A program made the position numbers and the translations under genes. From NCBI GenBank assembly GCA_017642445.1, contig JAGCPA010000095.1, positions 2,177 to 66,176 on the forward strand: a stretch of 64,000 nt of DNA. The letters are read 5' to 3'. This document shows positions 8,842-33,876 of this stretch, piece after piece; the first letter of the stretch is position 1; every line of letters begins with the position of its first letter. This DNA is from Spirochaetia bacterium. GTDB taxonomy: Bacteria > Spirochaetota > Spirochaetia > CADAEX01. The notes under the pieces were generated by a model. The model saw only the letters and a list, made by a program, of their open reading frames with translations. It had not been told where the DNA came from and ran no database searches.

Positions 8842-9121
8842 ATGGCAGAAGAGAAAAAAAAATACTAAAAAAGTTATTCTTATCATAATTGCAATTGTAA
8901 TTATTATTCTGGCATGCCTCTATGGCTGTATTGCAAAAGGCAAGAGTGCCCCTGCAGCACAGACTGTATCAACTCCAGCTCCCGCAACTATAGAATCTGC
9001 TTCCCCGGCTCCGGCTCCGGCACCACAGCCTGCTCCAGCTCCAAAGCCAGCACCGGCACCAGAGCCTCAGAAGTCTATTTTCCCTGAAAACAGCGCAGAC
9101 TCACCTGTGACAGAAAAGTAA
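8842..9121 (+). pseudogene. Small membrane-anchored Pro/Ala-rich protein, interrupted by a frameshift at an A9 tract
   Basis: AAGGAG ribosome-binding site 6 nt upstream of ATG 8842. The reading frame reaches TAA at 8866 after MAEEKKKY. The downstream 85-codon ORF (KNTKKVILIIIAIVIIILACLYGC...PAPAPAPQPAPAPKPAPAPEPQ...TEK, stop at 9119-9121) has no start codon of its own. The two join only if the A9 run (8854-8862) is read as A8. Confidence 0.55.
8854..8862 (+). repeat. A9 homopolymer tract at a frameshift site
   Basis: Nine consecutive A residues, counted directly. Confidence 0.9.
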
Positions 9122-26008: not shown

Positions 26009-26010
26009 AG

Positions 26011-26039
26011 AAAAAAAAGGCTGATTGAAAAATCAGCCT
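26011..26039 (-). terminator. Hairpin terminator, effective for minus-strand transcripts
   Basis: A8 run (26011-26018), then hairpin aggctgatt-gaaa-aatcagcct. Read on the minus strand this is a stem followed by T8. It may also attenuate + strand readthrough from the nif-like operon. Confidence 0.6.
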
Positions 26040-26133
26040 AGATTCGAATTGCAAATAGTTAACTGGGAGGGGAACTATATTGCCTCGACACTTTTATTAT
26101 CGGAACATGAGAAAAATTTATTAATAATTTTTT

Positions 26134-26571
26134 TTATTTTTTCAAATATATTTTGAAAATTCCTGTGATAAGCAGGATGAAGATGATTGCGGCAACTCCA
26201 CCGGGGATATATCCATTGGCTAAGAACATCCAGGCAAGGACAGCAGACATAAATAAAAGGAAGAAGTAGACAATGTGTGCAATCACCGGCAGAATGTGGT
26301 GCCTGATAATATCACCGGCTGATACACCTGCTTTCTTAAGATTGTGTATACGCACTGCCGGAATAATGATCAAGGCAAGAGCCACACAGATAAGGATGAA
26401 CCAGTTGTAGGCCACTTTTGAATGGGTTGCGGTGCTCCAGAGCGGATACACTACGATTGCAGCCAGCGCGATGCCTGCCGCAGCAGTAAGCAGCATAGTG
26501 AACAGTCCACCCAGCAGCCTGGGATAGAACATAGCCAGCTCTTTTATCGCCGATTCTTTCCTTTTATTCAT
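26134..26571 (-). CDS. Hypothetical integral membrane protein (4 predicted transmembrane helices)
   Basis: 145 aa. GGAAGGT ribosome-binding site 5 nt before the ATG (minus strand). Hydrophobic throughout. Confidence 0.5.
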   Translation of the reverse strand: MNKRKESAIKELAMFYPRLLGGLFTMLLTAAAGIALAAIVVYPLWSTATHSKVAYNWFILICVALALIIIPAVRIHNLKKAGVSAGDIIRHHILPVIAHIVYFFLLFMSAVLAWMFLANGYIPGGVAAIIFILLITGIFKIYLKK

Positions 26572-26983
26572 ACCTTCCTATTATATCGAAAACTAAATAA
26601 AAAACAATCGGCATAAGTATAAAGGAATATACCGTAATGGAGTTCTGGGGGTAATCTTGGATTGGCATGGGAAAATATATGATATTTCACGAGAAGAAAT
26701 TGAACAAAAAAAATGGAAACCTTAAAAAGGACTGCCACTATCCTTAGCAGGGATTGGGCCGATCCTTTAGATTTCCACTAAATTAAATATACCATATTTT
26801 GAGAGGAAGTCAAGCATGAAAAAAGTAAAAATATTTGGTACCGCACGATAAACGGACGGTAGACCGAGGGGACGCCCCCCCCGGCCAGGTGTTAGCCGCA
26901 CCTGCAGTAAACTGCTACCATCCGAACTTCCAGTTAAATTATCGGTGCGGTTCTTCATTATCTAAAGGAGGAAAAAAAATAGA

Positions 26984-27055
26984 ATGAAGACACCAATCAC
27001 TTATTATGGGGGCAAACAGCAGCTGGCACAGAAGATTATCAGCCTGATACTTTAG
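26984..27055 (+). pseudogene. Remnant of a Dam-like (D12 class) N6-adenine DNA methyltransferase N-terminus
   Basis: AAAGGAGG ribosome-binding site, then MKTPITYYGGKQQLAQKIISLIL followed by a stop. Y-x-GGK and KIISLI are characteristic of Dam-family N-termini. The rest of the gene is absent. Confidence 0.35.
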
Positions 27056-27253
27056 CATATAGAGCTGCCACAGATAATAGGGCAGTACGAAAGAATGTCT
27101 CACTCCCTCGGTGGCTCTCTATTCTTGCTGACCGCAAACATATAAATTGCTCACAAGTGCTACAGGAAGCCCTTATTGCAAGGTTGTAGTATAAACCCGG
27201 CGATATTTATTCTGATGATTGTATTTTTGCCATAAAAATAGTATACTTTTTGT

Positions 27254-29988: not shown

Positions 29989-30666
29989 ATGATAAATACA
30001 GTAACTGAAATTGATGACATGGTGGCACTTAAGAATGTGCTTATCAGCGTTTCAGATAAAACAGGGCTGGAGGCGTTTGTAAAAGGGCTTATCCAGATCA
30101 ATCCTGATATCAAGATCTATTCCACAGGCGGCACCTACACAGCAATCAAAGGATGGCTGGGCGATGCTGCGGAGAAGAACCTTATCCAGGTCTCTGACTA
30201 TACCAAGCAGCCTGAGATGCAGGGTGGTCTTGTAAAGACTCTGGACTTCAAGATCTACCTTGGAATTCTTTCCGAGACCTATAACGATGCCCACAAGAAG
30301 GACATTGCCCGAACCAACGCCACAATCTTTGACATGATAGTTGTGAACCTCTATCCGTTCGAGAAGACAGTAGCTAAAGCAGACTCCACTTCAGAGAATG
30401 CCCGTGGCAACATCGATATCGGCGGTCCATGCATGCTGAGAGCTTCTGCCAAGAACTTCCTGAGAGTAGCTTCTGTCACCGATCCTGCAGACTATCCTGT
30501 TATCCTTGATAATCTTAAGGCACAGAAGGGAGCGCTCAGCTTTGCACAGCGGTTTGAGCTTGCCAAGAAGACATTCAGCACCACCGCAAAGTACGACACA
30601 GCGATCAGCGCATATCTGGCAGGCCTTGCACCGTCCGATGCAGCCAAGGTATATAATCTTCACTAA
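29989..30666 (+). CDS. purH: IMP cyclohydrolase domain protein (N-terminal PurH domain, MGS-like), encoded as a separate gene
   Basis: LISVSDKTGL, STGGT, VVNLYPF and NIDIGGPCMLRASAKN are PurH IMP-cyclohydrolase motifs. Ends with TAA at 30664-30666. Confidence 0.85.
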   Translation: MINTVTEIDDMVALKNVLISVSDKTGLEAFVKGLIQINPDIKIYSTGGTYTAIKGWLGDAAEKNLIQVSDYTKQPEMQGGLVKTLDFKIYLGILSETYNDAHKKDIARTNATIFDMIVVNLYPFEKTVAKADSTSENARGNIDIGGPCMLRASAKNFLRVASVTDPADYPVILDNLKAQKGALSFAQRFELAKKTFSTTAKYDTAISAYLAGLAPSDAAKVYNLH

Positions 30667-30677
30667 GGAGTTCCGAC

Positions 30678-31931
30678 ATGGCAGAAAATCTTAAGGATAT
30701 GTATAAAAACATCAACAAGGATGCCTTCCCACAGTTCATGGACATAAGCTTCCGGAACTCTGACAGCGACAGGCAGACCCTTTTCTACGAGAAGGTGCAG
30801 TGGGACATCGGCGGCGAGAAGCTGGGACTCCGCTATGGCGAGAACCCTGACCAGCCTGCTGCCATGTACAAGCTTATAAACGGCAACCTTGCCATCGGCG
30901 GGGTAGAGACTGTGCTCCAGGGGCGCTATCTGGCCTCTGACGTGGAGCTTCTTCAGTCTGGCAAACACCCTGGAAAGATCAATATCACCGACGTGGACAA
31001 CGGCCTCAATATCCTCCGTTTCTTCTCTGATACACCATGCAGCGTTATCATCAAGCACAACAACCCGTCAGGTGTAGCAAAGGGTGAGACACTTGCCGAT
31101 GCATTCCATAAATCCCTTATGGCAGACCGCATCGCAGCATTCGGTGGTGCAGTCATACTGAACAGGGAAGTGGACCTTGAGACTGCTGAGCAGGTGACAG
31201 AGGGCTATGTCGAGGTAGTTGCGGCACCTGAGTTCTCTCCAAAGGCTTTTGAGCTTTTCCAGACCAAGAAGAACCTCCGTGTGATGCGGATCAAGAATAT
31301 CGACAGGCTCCAGGACTTTGCCTATTCAAGGTTCATGGACTTCAAATCAATTCTGGACGGTGGTGTCATCGCACAGTGGTCATATCTTCCAAAGGCCCGC
31401 AAAAAGGAGGATTTCCTCCCTGCAGTATGCGAGTACAAGGGAAAAGAGTACAGGGTGAACCGGCAGCCTACCGACAAGGAGTTTGATGATATTATCTTCG
31501 GCTGGCTGGTGGAAAGCGGTGTTACAAGCAACTCTGTAATCTATGTGAAGGATGGCGTCACTGTTGGAATCGGTACCGGCGAGCAGGACCGTGTAGGTGT
31601 GGCCGAGATTGCCCGTGACAAGGCTTATAAGAAGATGTGCGACCGTATCTGCTGGGACCTCTATGAGAAATCCTGGTATGAGCTCACCGATCCTGAGAAG
31701 CGTGCATCCATCGAATCTGTTGTAAAGGATGAGCACGGCGGACTTAAGGGAAGCATCATGGTTTCCGACGCCTTCTTCCCGTTCCGTGACGGCATCGACA
31801 TCGGCCTTAAAGAGGGTGTCACAGCTGTGGTTCAGCCTGGCGGTTCCCTCCGTGACTTTGAATCTATCGAAGCCTGCAACGAATACAATGCAGCTATGGT
31901 CTACACAGGCCAGAGGAGTTTCAGGCACTGA
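30678..31931 (+). CDS. purH: AICAR transformylase domain protein (C-terminal PurH domain), encoded as a separate gene
   Basis: LRYGENPDQ, IIKHNNPSGVA, SDAFFPFRDG, VVQPGGSLRD and the C-terminal VYTGQRSFRH are AICAR-transformylase motifs. Has its own AAGGAG ribosome-binding site. It is in a different frame from the IMP-cyclohydrolase ORF. Confidence 0.85.
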   Translation: MAENLKDMYKNINKDAFPQFMDISFRNSDSDRQTLFYEKVQWDIGGEKLGLRYGENPDQPAAMYKLINGNLAIGGVETVLQGRYLASDVELLQSGKHPGKINITDVDNGLNILRFFSDTPCSVIIKHNNPSGVAKGETLADAFHKSLMADRIAAFGGAVILNREVDLETAEQVTEGYVEVVAAPEFSPKAFELFQTKKNLRVMRIKNIDRLQDFAYSRFMDFKSILDGGVIAQWSYLPKARKKEDFLPAVCEYKGKEYRVNRQPTDKEFDDIIFGWLVESGVTSNSVIYVKDGVTVGIGTGEQDRVGVAEIARDKAYKKMCDRICWDLYEKSWYELTDPEKRASIESVVKDEHGGLKGSIMVSDAFFPFRDGIDIGLKEGVTAVVQPGGSLRDFESIEACNEYNAAMVYTGQRSFRH

Positions 31932-33061
31932 TGGATAAGGCACATCTGCGTTCCAGAATCCTTATTATCCTCTTGACTTGCTCTCTTATCGGTCTTTTAG
32001 TGTTCAATATTGCGACACTGAATGCTGTGAAGAAGCTTTCTGCCTCTGCCAAAGAGACAGCAGCCGCAGTGGGCAACCTGGATTATACACTCCAGAACAT
32101 GGGAGAGGATCTTTCGGATGCACGGAATGTGCTTGGCCTTAAGATAAACAGCTATGGCTCAGACCTGGCACAGGATACGCCCCAGGCTCCTGCCGACGAC
32201 TATGCAGGCTACTACAGCGCACTGGACCAGCTTATGTCTGAGTTCAGCGAGTCTATGCTCAGGAAAGGGTGCGCCTATTTCATGGAATCCAAGGAGTGCC
32301 TTGACCTTTACCGTTCTCATAACCTTACACCGGTGCAGAAAGGGAGGGAGATACTCCTTTCCAGTGGAGGAAAGCTGTTCTACAGACTCTCTATCCTGCC
32401 TTATACCACCGGAGGCAAGGTGCAGTTCGATGCCGAGACCTTCGACAAGGTATCCGCTGCAAAGATAAGCACAGACAAGGAGCTTGCCTCCTTTATAGAT
32501 GCCAACAATATCCGTATCCATGCCCATTATGCCCAGCTTGACCCGGTGGCAAAGAAGATGGAGCAGCTTACAAGAAATCCACAGCTTCTTTCCTATCTGA
32601 CAGAGCAGAAGCTTTATATTAAGAAGCGGGATGCCGAGAATACCCAGACCGGCTACGATATCCGCCGCACCGACGGATCGCTCCTATGCAGCATGCTGCT
32701 TGATCTGGTTGAGGGTAATATCACACTGGGAAATATAAAGTGCAGCTCTACCGATGAGCTTTGGGAAGACCTTCTTAAGCTTCACACCCTGTTTGATATC
32801 AGGACTGTATCGGAGAAGAAGACAGAATCCAAGCTGGAAGAGCTTTCTGCCATGGTCAAGGATCCTGCTTTCACCGCATTCCTTGAGACCAAGGGGTGCA
32901 TCATAGCACAGACTCCGGAGGAGAAGGAAGAGAGCTACGACTTTGCCATAACTGACCGTGGCGGCTTTGTTATAGGCACACTCTCCCTTGAGAAGGATAC
33001 CGGCGAGGTATACCTCTTCGACAGCGACAACGTGGTTGTCTCCTCCGTAAAAAAAAACTGA
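31931..33061 (+). CDS. Membrane-anchored protein; probable N-terminal part of an LCP (LytR-CpsA-Psr) family protein broken by a frameshift
   Basis: N-terminal transmembrane helix. The ORF ends at TGA 33059-33061, immediately after the A9 tract 33049-33057. Reading A10 instead fuses it in frame with the downstream LCP-domain ORF. Confidence 0.5.
   Translation: MDKAHLRSRILIILLTCSLIGLLVFNIATLNAVKKLSASAKETAAAVGNLDYTLQNMGEDLSDARNVLGLKINSYGSDLAQDTPQAPADDYAGYYSALDQLMSEFSESMLRKGCAYFMESKECLDLYRSHNLTPVQKGREILLSSGGKLFYRLSILPYTTGGKVQFDAETFDKVSAAKISTDKELASFIDANNIRIHAHYAQLDPVAKKMEQLTRNPQLLSYLTEQKLYIKKRDAENTQTGYDIRRTDGSLLCSMLLDLVEGNITLGNIKCSSTDELWEDLLKLHTLFDIRTVSEKKTESKLEELSAMVKDPAFTAFLETKGCIIAQTPEEKEESYDFAITDRGGFVIGTLSLEKDTGEVYLFDSDNVVVSSVKKN
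33049..33057 (+). repeat. A9 homopolymer tract at a frameshift site
   Basis: Nine consecutive A residues, counted directly. Confidence 0.9.
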
Positions 33062-33114
33062 ATTTTAACACAGCCTCAGGCTCGGACGGCCATTTCACCA
33101 TACTTATCTGCGGC

Positions 33115-33876
33115 ATGAACCAGAGGAATACCGATACTCTTATTTTGGCAAACCTTGATCTGAACATGAACAAGGCCACCCTTATAAGCCTGCCTCGGGA
33201 CCTTTTCTACAAGCGCACCAAGATAAACAGCATCTACCGCCGTTTCGGCCCCAATGTCCTTGTCTCCTCTTTGTCTGATATGACAGGGCTCAGGATTGAT
33301 AAATATGTGATGGTTGATATGTATGCCTTTGCCGAGCTGGTGAATATACTCGGGGGCATAGATGTGGAGCTTACAGAGCCTCTGGTGGATCCGACTTACC
33401 GTGTGAGGGACGAGAACGGCAGGTGGTCGACCCTTTACTATCCGGCCGGGGTGCACCATGTGAACGGAGTCCAGGCGCTCAGGATAGCGCGGGCACGCCA
33501 TTATACCCCTGTCTTCTCACGGGATATGAGGCAGCAGCAGATCCTTAAGGCTGTGAAGAACAGACTTATGTCTATAGGCCTTTCCGACATAAACCGCTTA
33601 AGCCGTATCATAAAGCTCGGCTTCAAGTATGTGGAGACCGACATATCGTGGCTTGAGGCATTCAGCCTTTACAGGAACTGCCAGGATATAACCATAAACC
33701 AGGCGGTGCTGAGCACTGACAATGTTCTGTATGCCACATACACAAACCTCCTTGCCACAGGGCTGGAGGAGGACCAGGTGGCCGAAGACTTTGACAAAGG
33801 GGCTTGGATAGTGGTTCCTCTTGACAATGACTGGAAAGTTGTTAAAAAATTCATTGAGGAAAAGATTGCTGAATGA
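33115..33876 (+). CDS. LCP (LytR-CpsA-Psr) family domain protein, C-terminal part
   Basis: RNTDTLILANLD and ISLPRDL are LCP core motifs. The LCP-like sequence GHFTILICG continues upstream of the ATG in the same frame, back to the A9 tract. Confidence 0.65.
   Translation: MNQRNTDTLILANLDLNMNKATLISLPRDLFYKRTKINSIYRRFGPNVLVSSLSDMTGLRIDKYVMVDMYAFAELVNILGGIDVELTEPLVDPTYRVRDENGRWSTLYYPAGVHHVNGVQALRIARARHYTPVFSRDMRQQQILKAVKNRLMSIGLSDINRLSRIIKLGFKYVETDISWLEAFSLYRNCQDITINQAVLSTDNVLYATYTNLLATGLEEDQVAEDFDKGAWIVVPLDNDWKVVKKFIEEKIAE

What the first reader, a model, noticed from the sequence alone, without database searches (positions are those of the whole stretch)
31931..33876. LCP (LytR-CpsA-Psr) family gene split in two by a second A9 tract
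The 376-aa membrane-anchored ORF ends at TGA immediately after A9 (33049-33057). In the +1 frame, LCP-domain sequence (...GHFTILICGMNQRNTDTLILANLD...) runs continuously from the tract into the 253-aa ORF annotated from ATG 33115. Reading A10 fuses both into one roughly 630-aa LCP protein. Together with the tract at 8854, both A9 runs found in coding sequence in this window coincide with frameshifts. One needs +1 and the other -1. That pattern points either to systematic homopolymer miscalls or to genes expressed through transcriptional slippage.
Basis: seen in the sequence. Interest (0 to 1): 0.5.

Follow-up and report, generated by a model that had tools for sequence, protein, structure and literature searches.

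The report
Conserved A9 frameshift site in LCP gene
A run of nine A's that splits a cell-wall enzyme (LCP) gene in a rumen spirochaete is not a sequencing error: the same run and break are kept unchanged in every related species examined. It therefore looks like a programmed frameshift site that makes a short and a full-length protein from one gene.

Summary
A9 lies at 33049-33057 and ORF1 (376 aa) stops at TGA 33059-61. The -1 frame is open through the tract to 33876, and one extra A gives a 648-aa protein with a membrane anchor, an N-domain and an LCP domain.

The break is not an error, a pseudogene or a phase-variable tract:
- All 11 species-level lineages (N-part identity down to 36%) and 5 conspecific assemblies carry the identical 16 nt G-TAAAAAAAAA-CTGAA. 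Flanking synonymous sites vary freely.
- Both halves are under purifying selection (dN/dS 0.07-0.16).
- The stretch between the tract and ATG 33115 is conserved as protein in the -1 frame.
- That ATG is Thr in four lineages, so no conserved start exists.
- More distant homologues (at most 42% identical) are single ORFs of roughly 600-780 aa.

Best reading: a programmed recoding site. RNA-polymerase slippage on A9 is the most likely mechanism, and -1 ribosomal frameshifting on A_AAA_AAC is the main rival. No stimulatory RNA structure was found.

The other A9, at 8854, is different. Five conspecific assemblies read A5CA2 in frame, so that frameshift is private to this assembly (an error or a strain mutation).

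This is a new member of a known kind. Neither transcripts nor protein have been examined.

The parts
31931..33061 (+). ORF1 (zero frame), 376 aa. It has an N-terminal membrane anchor (residues about 9-27) and an N-domain of about 350 aa with no Pfam family. It ends VKKN-TGA immediately after the A9. It is annotated in NCBI as hypothetical protein MBO7048831.1.
   Evidence: There are 25 homologous protein clusters of 370-377 aa. dN/dS is 0.10-0.16. The start ATG overlaps the stop of the upstream purH-like gene.
33049..33057 (+). A9 homopolymer, the proposed slippage or shift site.
   Evidence: The run is exactly 9 in all 18 related loci.
33047..33062 (+). Invariant 16-nt block G TAA AAA AAA ACT GAA, comprising the Val codon GTA, the A9, C, the stop TGA and one A. 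It is the longest invariant nucleotide run in the gene.
   Evidence: The next longest invariant run is 8 nt. V373 GTA is the only invariant codon among 35 fourfold-degenerate columns with an invariant amino acid. L377 CTG is the only one among 28 such sixfold columns.
33052..33058 (+). A_AAA_AAC heptamer in the zero frame, a potential -1 ribosomal slippery site, followed directly by the stop TGA 33059-61.
   Evidence: Read from the sequence. The motif is a proven frameshift site in IS1 without an established stimulator (PMC4066793).
33058..33114 (+). Linker plus the beginning of the first LCP beta-strand, encoded in the -1 frame upstream of the annotated ATG (LNFNTASGSDGHFTILICG).
   Evidence: It is conserved as protein in the -1 frame, with indels of +3, -15 and -18 nt. 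The AF2 strand 388-398 spans M396. PDB LCP homology begins here.
33115..33876 (+). Annotated 253-aa LCP ORF (MBO7048832.1), proposed here to be the C-terminal part of the trans-frame 648-aa product. ATG 33115 is not a conserved start.
   Evidence: Pfam PF03816. LCP fold with TM-score on the target 0.5-0.78. dN/dS is 0.07-0.13. The ATG is replaced by Thr codons in L007, L008, L012 and L016. No Shine-Dalgarno (SD) sequence lies upstream.
8842..9121 (+). The other A9 (8854-8862) lies in a small 92-aa membrane protein gene rich in Pro and Ala. Here the reading frame breaks after MAEEKKKY*. It is not part of the conserved system and is listed because the finding links the two tracts.
   Evidence: Conspecific assemblies read GAG AAA AAC AAT ACT in frame. 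Other relatives lack any run.

Best explanation
The A9 at 33049-33057 is a conserved programmed recoding site inside a single LCP (LytR-CpsA-Psr) gene. Standard decoding gives a 376-aa membrane-anchored N-domain protein that stops right after the tract.

In a fraction of transcripts, RNA polymerase slips on the nine A's. Nine is about the length of the RNA-DNA hybrid, so the whole hybrid can realign. The slip adds one non-templated A, and the resulting A10 mRNA reads through as ...VKKKLNF... into the LCP catalytic domain. The product is a 648-aa protein with anchor, N-domain and LCP domain, the same architecture that more distant homologues encode in one ORF.

The LCP domain has no start codon, Shine-Dalgarno (SD) sequence or export signal of its own. 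It can therefore reach the outer face of the membrane only as this fusion.

Shown: the conservation, the frames, the selection and the architecture. Inferred: that the shift happens, that it happens mainly at transcription, and that both products are used.
For: 1. Identical G-TA9-CTGAA with the stop directly after it, and the LCP part in the -1 frame, is found in 11 lineages. Their N-part identity runs from 36% to 88%, and pS is 0.42-0.70 in the 8 lineages where it was measured. The same holds in 5 conspecific assemblies.
2. Selection acts at the nucleotide level. Outside the junction, 0 of 34 fourfold, 0 of 27 sixfold and 12 of 33 twofold codon columns with an invariant amino acid have an invariant codon. 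All five junction codons do. The third base of GTA, which makes the run 9 rather than 8, is invariant.
3. dN/dS is 0.07-0.13 for the LCP part and 0.10-0.16 for the N-part, so neither half is decaying.
4. The linker is conserved in the -1 frame, with indels in multiples of 3.
5. ATG 33115 is Thr in 4 lineages. There the first canonical start lies 84-108 nt past the tract, beyond the invariant Asp402 motif. No start exists in that frame upstream of the tract in any lineage.
6. More than 100 single-ORF homologues of roughly 600-780 aa cover both parts.
7. The AF2 model puts the site in a disordered interdomain linker (372-386, pLDDT below 50), and the first LCP strand (388-398) spans M396.
8. No conserved RNA structure or SD-like stimulator flanks the site. 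A bare homopolymer slippage site would look like this. Citrobacter tssM1 was argued the same way.
9. Nine A/T is the length at which slippage becomes evident in many bacteria, and A9 is used in Thermus dnaX (PMC1088944).
Against: - No transcript or protein data exist. The shift itself is inferred from comparative genomics only.
- The tract also contains a bona fide -1 ribosomal heptamer, A_AAA_AAC, followed by a stop. Sequence alone cannot separate the two mechanisms.
- The invariance of C33058 and G33060, which are synonymous-free in both frames, is not explained by a pure run-length model.
- Slippage efficiency on A9 depends on the organism and is unknown for spirochaetes.
- The 0.6 confidence is for transcriptional slippage as the main mechanism. 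Programmed recoding by either mechanism is about 0.85.
Confidence: 0.6

Rival explanations
1. The same programmed recoding, but the shift is made by the ribosome. This would be -1 frameshifting on A_AAA_AAC (33052-33058), possibly helped by the adjacent UGA stop, giving ...VKKN-LNF... The A9 is then longer than strictly needed.
For: - The heptamer is in the correct zero-frame phase.
- A_AAA_AAC is a proven site in IS1 with no established stimulator.
- The invariant C33058 and the invariant UGA directly after the site are more easily explained by a ribosomal signal than by run length alone.
Against: - No conserved downstream stem-loop or pseudoknot and no upstream SD-like sequence was found.
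- The heptamer needs only 7 nt, yet the fourfold-degenerate third base of the preceding Val codon is invariant in 11 of 11 lineages while no other fourfold site is. This points to selection for a run of nine.
Confidence: 0.25
2. These are two genuinely separate genes. The LCP part would be translated on its own, from ATG 33115, another start, or by termination-reinitiation at the overlapping C-UGA/CUG. It would then act with or without the N-domain protein.
For: - Gene callers and NCBI annotate two genes.
- ATG 33115 exists in 7 of 11 lineages.
- The split is stable, and the short product has a fixed C-terminus.
Against: - The ATG is Thr in L007, L008, L012 and L016, and the next starts would delete the first strand and the invariant NTD motif.
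- No SD sequence precedes ATG 33115.
- The 19 codons upstream of it are conserved as protein and belong to the LCP fold.
- A free LCP domain has no signal peptide or anchor. By established knowledge, LCP catalytic domains work outside the cytoplasmic membrane.
- This model gives no reason for nucleotide-level invariance of A9.
Confidence: 0.07
3. This is a phase-variable contingency locus. DNA replication slippage would switch the tract between A9 (off) and A10 (on) within populations.
For: Homopolymers in envelope genes are classic phase-variation sites (PMC3711429). Two 90% protein clusters oddly contain both N-parts and LCP parts, which could hint at a bridging fused member.
Against: - All 18 loci from many samples and species are A9.
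- No fused protein more than 42% identical exists among cluster representatives.
- Four fused sequences (the window, L007, L009 and L010) are absent from the collection.
- No fused member appeared among the 80 cluster members read.
Confidence: 0.04
4. The break is a sequencing or assembly miscall (true A10) or a recently inactivated pseudogene.
For: The window comes from a MAG (metagenome-assembled genome), and its other A9 frameshift (8854) is indeed private to this assembly.
Against: - The same A9 is found in assemblies made independently with different assemblers from many samples and host animals.
- dN/dS is about 0.1 on both halves across saturated synonymous divergence.
- No second disruption exists in any lineage.
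Confidence: 0.02

Closest known systems
Citrobacter rodentium / Yersinia pseudotuberculosis tssM (T6SS) transcriptional frameshifting (Gueguen et al. 2014, PMC4256274)
   Same: - It is a cellular envelope-protein gene prematurely terminated directly after a poly-A run.
- Slippage adds A's and restores a C-terminal periplasmic domain.
- Two length variants come from one gene.
- No SD-like sequence or RNA structure lies nearby.
   Different: - The run there is A11, against A9 here.
- That case was shown experimentally, and both forms are needed. Here there is only comparative evidence.
- The gene family (LCP) and the phylum (Spirochaetota) differ.
- Here the site is conserved over much deeper divergence.
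Thermus thermophilus dnaX A9 and Shigella mxiE/spa13 T-run transcriptional slippage (Baranov et al. 2005 PMC1088944; Atkins et al. 2016 PMC5009743)
   Same: A run of nine identical bases inside a coding sequence is used to make a trans-frame product. In mxiE and spa13 the slippage product is the longer, functional one.
   Different: In dnaX the slippage product is the shorter one. The families are unrelated, and efficiencies there were measured (25-50%) whereas here they are unknown.
IS1 insA-insB' -1 ribosomal frameshift on A_AAA_AAC
   Same: The slippery heptamer is identical. The downstream ORF is in the -1 frame without its own start, and no established stimulator exists.
   Different: IS1 is a mobile-element transposase with a low-level shift. 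Here the gene is chromosomal, and the run is extended to nine A's under selection.
Single-ORF spirochaete LCP proteins (for example P0026-P0050, annotated 'LCP family protein', roughly 600-780 aa)
   Same: They have the same anchor, N-domain, linker and LCP architecture. They are homologous over 98% of the fused query and share invariant LCP residues such as D402, R423, D424, R518, R521 and R523.
   Different: They are encoded in one frame. At the equivalent position they have a variable linker and no homopolymer, and they are at most 42% identical.
Poly(A) frameshift rescue in insect endosymbionts (Tamas et al. 2008, as summarised in PMC5009743)
   Same: Cell-wall genes are interrupted at long A runs, and 12-50% of transcripts are corrected by slippage.
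   Different: That case is adventitious rescue of decaying genes in AT-rich reduced genomes. Here the genome is 49% GC and the site is held invariant across species, so it is programmed rather than tolerated.

Membership tests
LCP (LytR-CpsA-Psr) glycopolymer transferase family | LytR_cpsA_psr domain scoring above the curated threshold | tested here: met
   PF03816 scores 103 bits against a cutoff of 24.6. TIGR00350 scores 101.5 bits against 62.3.
LCP (LytR-CpsA-Psr) glycopolymer transferase family | LCP alpha/beta fold | tested here: met
   Foldseek of the AF2 model hits TagV, Cps2A, LcpA and TagT with E from 1e-15 to 1e-12 and TM-score on the target 0.5-0.78.
LCP (LytR-CpsA-Psr) glycopolymer transferase family | Conserved Asp/Arg residues of the pyrophosphate-lipid site | tested here: inconclusive
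   D402, R423, D424, R518, R521 and R523 are invariant across 20 homologues. They were not mapped residue by residue onto a solved active site.
LCP (LytR-CpsA-Psr) glycopolymer transferase family | Membrane anchor placing the catalytic domain outside the cytoplasm | tested here: met
   This is met only in the trans-frame 648-aa product. The hydrophobic segment lies at residues 9-27 of ORF1, and the 253-aa ORF has no signal or anchor.
LCP (LytR-CpsA-Psr) glycopolymer transferase family | Transfer of a lipid-linked glycopolymer to peptidoglycan | not testable with these tools
   This needs a biochemical assay. The substrate in a diderm spirochaete is unknown.
Programmed transcriptional realignment (slippage) site | Homopolymer A/T run of about 8-9 nt or longer at the frame junction | tested here: met
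   A9 lies at 33049-33057. The length threshold is taken from PMC1088944 and PMC3711429.
Programmed transcriptional realignment (slippage) site | Run and frame break conserved among diverged homologues under purifying selection | tested here: met
   18 of 18 loci carry A9, the 16-nt block is invariant, and dN/dS is about 0.1 on both halves.
Programmed transcriptional realignment (slippage) site | Downstream ORF lacks its own initiation signal, and the trans-frame product matches single-ORF homologues | tested here: met
Programmed transcriptional realignment (slippage) site | Heterogeneous run length in mRNA but not in DNA | not testable with these tools
   This needs cDNA against gDNA deep sequencing or ESI-MS, as.
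-1 programmed ribosomal frameshifting | X_XXY_YYZ heptamer in the zero-frame phase within the overlap | tested here: met
   A_AAA_AAC lies at 33052-33058.
-1 programmed ribosomal frameshifting | Stimulator: a downstream structure or an upstream SD-like sequence (usual, not obligatory) | tested here: not met
   Downstream MFE z-scores range from -3.1 to +1.3 with no common structure. The RNAalifold consensus is -1.2 kcal/mol. The upstream sequence is CTCCTCC, not SD-like.
Phase-variable contingency locus (slipped-strand mispairing) | Tract-length polymorphism among strains or populations at the DNA level | tested here: not met
   All 18 loci are A9. No fused representative exists. Read-level data were not available.
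Pseudogene | Relaxed constraint or further disruptions downstream of the break | tested here: not met
   dN/dS of the LCP part is 0.07-0.13, and the ORF is intact in every lineage with complete sequence.

The most novel reading that the evidence does not exclude
The A9 is not just a tolerated break. It would be a ratio-setting device that obligatorily produces two isoforms of an envelope protein: an N-domain-only form and a catalytic full-length LCP. The proportion would be fixed, or made sensitive to the nucleotide pool or growth rate, by RNA-polymerase slippage. This clade of gut spirochaetes would have kept it because neither A10 (long form only) nor loss of the LCP domain is acceptable. 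It would be the first recoding-controlled LCP enzyme and the first programmed slippage site described in Spirochaetota.
Probability: 0.3. Interest if true: 0.7.

Novelty: new member of a known kind. Interest (0 to 1): 0.58.

Why it matters
Cellular, non-mobile bacterial genes that rely on programmed slippage or frameshifting are few. Examples are dnaX, prfB, mxiE/spa and tssM. This adds a deeply conserved case in a cell-envelope enzyme family and in a phylum where none is described.

It also shows that public annotation splits the gene into a 'hypothetical protein' and an anchor-less 'LCP family protein' in hundreds of rumen assemblies. Those two calls should be merged as one recoded gene.

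There is a practical lesson too. Of two identical-looking A9 frameshifts in one window, one is programmed and the other is a private artefact or mutation, and only comparison with relatives separates them.

If both isoforms are functional, the site offers a simple natural system for studying how a homopolymer sets an isoform ratio.

Tried and rejected
- **Stimulatory RNA structure.** I folded 70 nt downstream of the tract in 11 lineages and ran RNAalifold over -60..+18. Nothing was conserved. A GACAAC/GTTGTC inverted repeat upstream in the window is just the Asp-Asn / Val-Val codons. It degrades in relatives and lies 8 nt from the run, so I rejected it as a terminator-like stimulator.
- **A10 or fused variants.** I looked in 90% cluster representatives, in 50% representatives, by exact look-up of four fused sequences and in cluster membership lists. 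None was found. The lists read only 40 members per cluster.
- **Metagenome scan with YebC for the 8854 locus.** It returned mostly distant genomes. Only L017 and L018 were useful. A TyrRS homologue search plus exact look-up of the window's TyrRS resolved the question instead.
- **Other homopolymer-broken genes in the window.** Candidate adjacent ORF pairs are a complete flavodoxin next to a PLD-like ORF, paired chromate transporters, EF-P and LapA/SPOR. There is no sign of systematic miscalls.
- **Rfam and tRNA scans of the window.** Only tRNA-Ala was found.
- **Foldseek for the N-domain.** No significant PDB match was found.
- **Literature.** No paper holds LytR-CpsA-Psr together with frameshift and slippage. 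Among the papers listed for a spirochaete, Treponema and slippage search, none mentions transcriptional slippage. Antonov et al. 2013 does not mention LytR.
Full report
**1. The observation**

The window (49% GC) contains exactly two A9 runs, at 8854-8862 and 33049-33057, and nothing longer. At the second run ORF1 (31931..33061, 376 aa) reads GTA AAA AAA AAC TGA and stops. The frame of the annotated 253-aa ORF (ATG 33115, stop 33874-76) is open from 32992 through the tract. One added A gives a 648-aa protein reading ...VVVSSVKKKLNFNTASGSDGHFTILICGMNQRNTDT....

Pfam LytR_cpsA_psr matches fused residues 400-546 at 103 bits. NCBIfam TagU and solved LCP structures (MsrR, TagU) align from 8-13 residues upstream of Met396, which is the annotated ATG.

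**2. Where the window comes from**

ORF1 and ORF2 are identical to MBO7048831.1 ('hypothetical protein', locus tag J6W62_07970) and MBO7048832.1 ('LCP family protein'). Both come from an NCBI MAG (metagenome-assembled genome) labelled Spirochaetia bacterium. The relatives are rumen MAGs from buffalo, yak, sheep and goat.

**3. The break is conserved, not accidental**

A protein search with the fused sequence returned 25 clusters, 57-90% identical to the N-part, all 370-377 aa long. The N-part therefore ends at the same place in all of them. Single-ORF proteins covering both parts appear only at lower identity, 25-43%. An exhaustive search of 50%-identity representatives gave the same picture. 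The clade is represented only by 376-aa and 368-aa N-parts, against more than 100 single-ORF homologues, mostly 600-780 aa and at most 42% identical.

I fetched DNA for 11 species-level lineages: the window, L007-L011, L005/6, L002-4, L001, L016 and L012. Their N-part identity to the window is 36-88% and their C-part identity 62-88%. I also fetched five conspecific assemblies, L111-L115.

- Every one carries GT-A9-CTGAA, with the zero-frame stop directly after the run and the LCP part in the -1 frame. The count is 18 of 18 loci.
- L012 has lost about 180 residues of the N-domain in frame and still keeps the site.

**4. Selection at the nucleotide level**

I built a codon alignment of the 11 lineages and looked at columns where the amino acid is invariant. 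Outside the junction, the codon is also invariant in 0 of 34 fourfold-degenerate columns, 0 of 27 sixfold columns and 12 of 33 twofold columns. At the junction, GTA-AAA-AAA-AA(A)-CTG are all invariant. The 16-nt block 33047-33062 is the longest invariant run in the gene; the next longest is 8 nt.

In the 8 lineages where it was measured, synonymous divergence from the window is pS 0.42-0.70. A neutral A9, which is itself a mutable sequence, would not survive that much divergence.

**5. Both halves are functional coding sequence**

dN/dS is 0.10-0.16 for the N-part and 0.07-0.13 for the LCP part. The 19 codons between the tract and ATG 33115 are conserved as protein in the -1 frame (LN...SD..[FY][TN]IL[ILV]CG). 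Length differences there are +3, -15 and -18 nt.

An AlphaFold2 model built on 20 homologues has mean pLDDT 74. It places the junction in a disordered linker (372-386, pLDDT below 50), and the first strand of the LCP domain spans 388-398, across Met396. The C-part superposes on TagV, Cps2A, LcpA and TagT. The N-domain has no PDB match.

**6. No independent start for the LCP part**

- The ATG is ACG, ACC or ACA (Thr) in L007, L008, L012 and L016.
- In those lineages the first canonical start lies 84-108 nt past the tract. That is beyond the invariant N-T-D motif (D402) of the family.
- In the single-ORF homologues the equivalent residue is usually His.
- No lineage has a start codon in the -1 frame upstream of the tract. 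In L016 that frame opens only 18 nt before the run, so any shift must happen within about 30 nt containing the A9.
- No Shine-Dalgarno (SD) sequence precedes ATG 33115. By contrast AAGGAG stands before the small gene at 8842.
- The 253-aa product has no signal peptide or anchor. Established knowledge of the LCP family is that these catalytic domains act on the outer face of the cytoplasmic membrane.
- The neighbouring genes are tightly coupled. The purH stop overlaps the ORF1 start, and the LCP stop overlaps the miaB start.

**7. Mechanism**

Two known mechanisms fit the sequence.

- **(a) RNA-polymerase slippage on A9.** Nine A/T is the length at which selection against slippage becomes evident in many bacteria. 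A9 is used in Thermus dnaX, T runs in Shigella mxiE and spa13, and A11 directly before the stop in Citrobacter tssM1, where two length variants are both required.
- **(b) -1 ribosomal frameshifting on A_AAA_AAC.** The heptamer (33052-33058) is in the correct phase. It is the proven IS1 motif, which has no established stimulator.

I found no conserved downstream structure (z-scores from -3.1 to +1.3, no common fold). There is no consensus structure around the site (-1.2 kcal/mol) and no SD-like sequence upstream.

I favour (a) because the ninth A is the fourfold-degenerate third base of the Val codon. The heptamer does not need it, yet it is invariant while no other fourfold site is. The invariant C33058 and G33060 are free in both frames and are better explained by (b) or by context effects, so the two mechanisms may coexist. 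The junction residue would discriminate: Lys for (a), Asn for tandem (b).

**8. Rivals**

- **Sequencing error.** Excluded by the many independent assemblies.
- **Pseudogene.** Excluded by dN/dS.
- **Phase variation.** Not supported. No A10 locus was found, there is no fused representative, and four fused sequences tried are absent from the collection. Read-level polymorphism could not be examined.
- One oddity remains. Two 90% clusters hold both N-parts and LCP parts, which might reflect an unseen bridging sequence.

**9. The other A9 (8854)**

A strong SD sequence and ATG 8842 open MAEEKKKY*. Removing one A gives a 92-aa membrane protein rich in Pro and Ala.

Five conspecific assemblies are 98.3-99.9% identical to the window over 2.6-4.2 kb. 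They read GAG AAA AAC AAT ACT in frame, and this site is the only gap in each alignment. Three of the samples they come from (ERZ28653423, SRR12529116, SRR32285421) also yielded LCP loci, and those keep A9 at the LCP site. Other relatives have AAA AGC AAT or no run at all, and the gene is absent in two.

This frameshift is therefore private to this assembly: a C-to-AA change that is either an assembly error or a strain mutation. It is not evidence for a genome-wide pattern. No other homopolymer in the window breaks a gene.

**10. Verdict**

The LCP tract is best explained as a conserved programmed recoding site, which makes it a new member of a known kind. No report turned up in the literature searches. 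Expression of the fusion, the mechanism and the role of the short form all remain to be shown experimentally.

Noticed in passing
window 8842-9121 (A9 at 8854-8862): A small SD-led gene for a 92-aa membrane protein rich in Pro and Ala (possible lipobox ILAC) is frameshifted only in this assembly. Five conspecific assemblies read A5CA2 in frame. It is either an assembly error or a strain-specific mutation.
   Followed up: yes
protein clusters of P0002 and P0004: Two 90%-identity clusters contain both 376-aa N-parts and 233-260-aa LCP parts, which share no sequence. A fused (A10?) member might bridge them, but none was among the 40 members read per cluster.
   Followed up: partly
L012:1616-2967: One relative has an in-frame loss of about 180 residues from the N-domain (ORF1 is only 183 aa). 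It keeps the A9 site and an intact LCP part.
   Followed up: partly
window 31929-31933 and 33873-33876: The purH-like stop overlaps the ORF1 start (TGATG), and the LCP stop overlaps the miaB start (ATGA). This suggests a tightly coupled purH-lcp-miaB-lapA-SPOR operon.
   Followed up: no
window 26009-27253: A 1.2-kb stretch with no long plus-strand ORF (it holds one 145-aa minus-strand ORF, 26134..26571) is unusually rich in homopolymers: A8 three times, T8 once and C8 once. No Rfam family or tRNA matches there.
   Followed up: no
window 29989-31931; L006:72-2014: The purH function is encoded as two adjacent ORFs, one with MGS plus AICARFT_IMPCHas matches and one with AICARFT_IMPCHas. The relative L006 has the same arrangement, so it appears conserved rather than broken.
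   Followed up: no
relatives' annotated LCP ORFs: Gene callers give the LCP part five different full lengths (238, 243, 253, 256, 260 aa) in close relatives, because there is no consistent start codon. Public annotation of this gene is systematically wrong or incomplete.
   Followed up: partly
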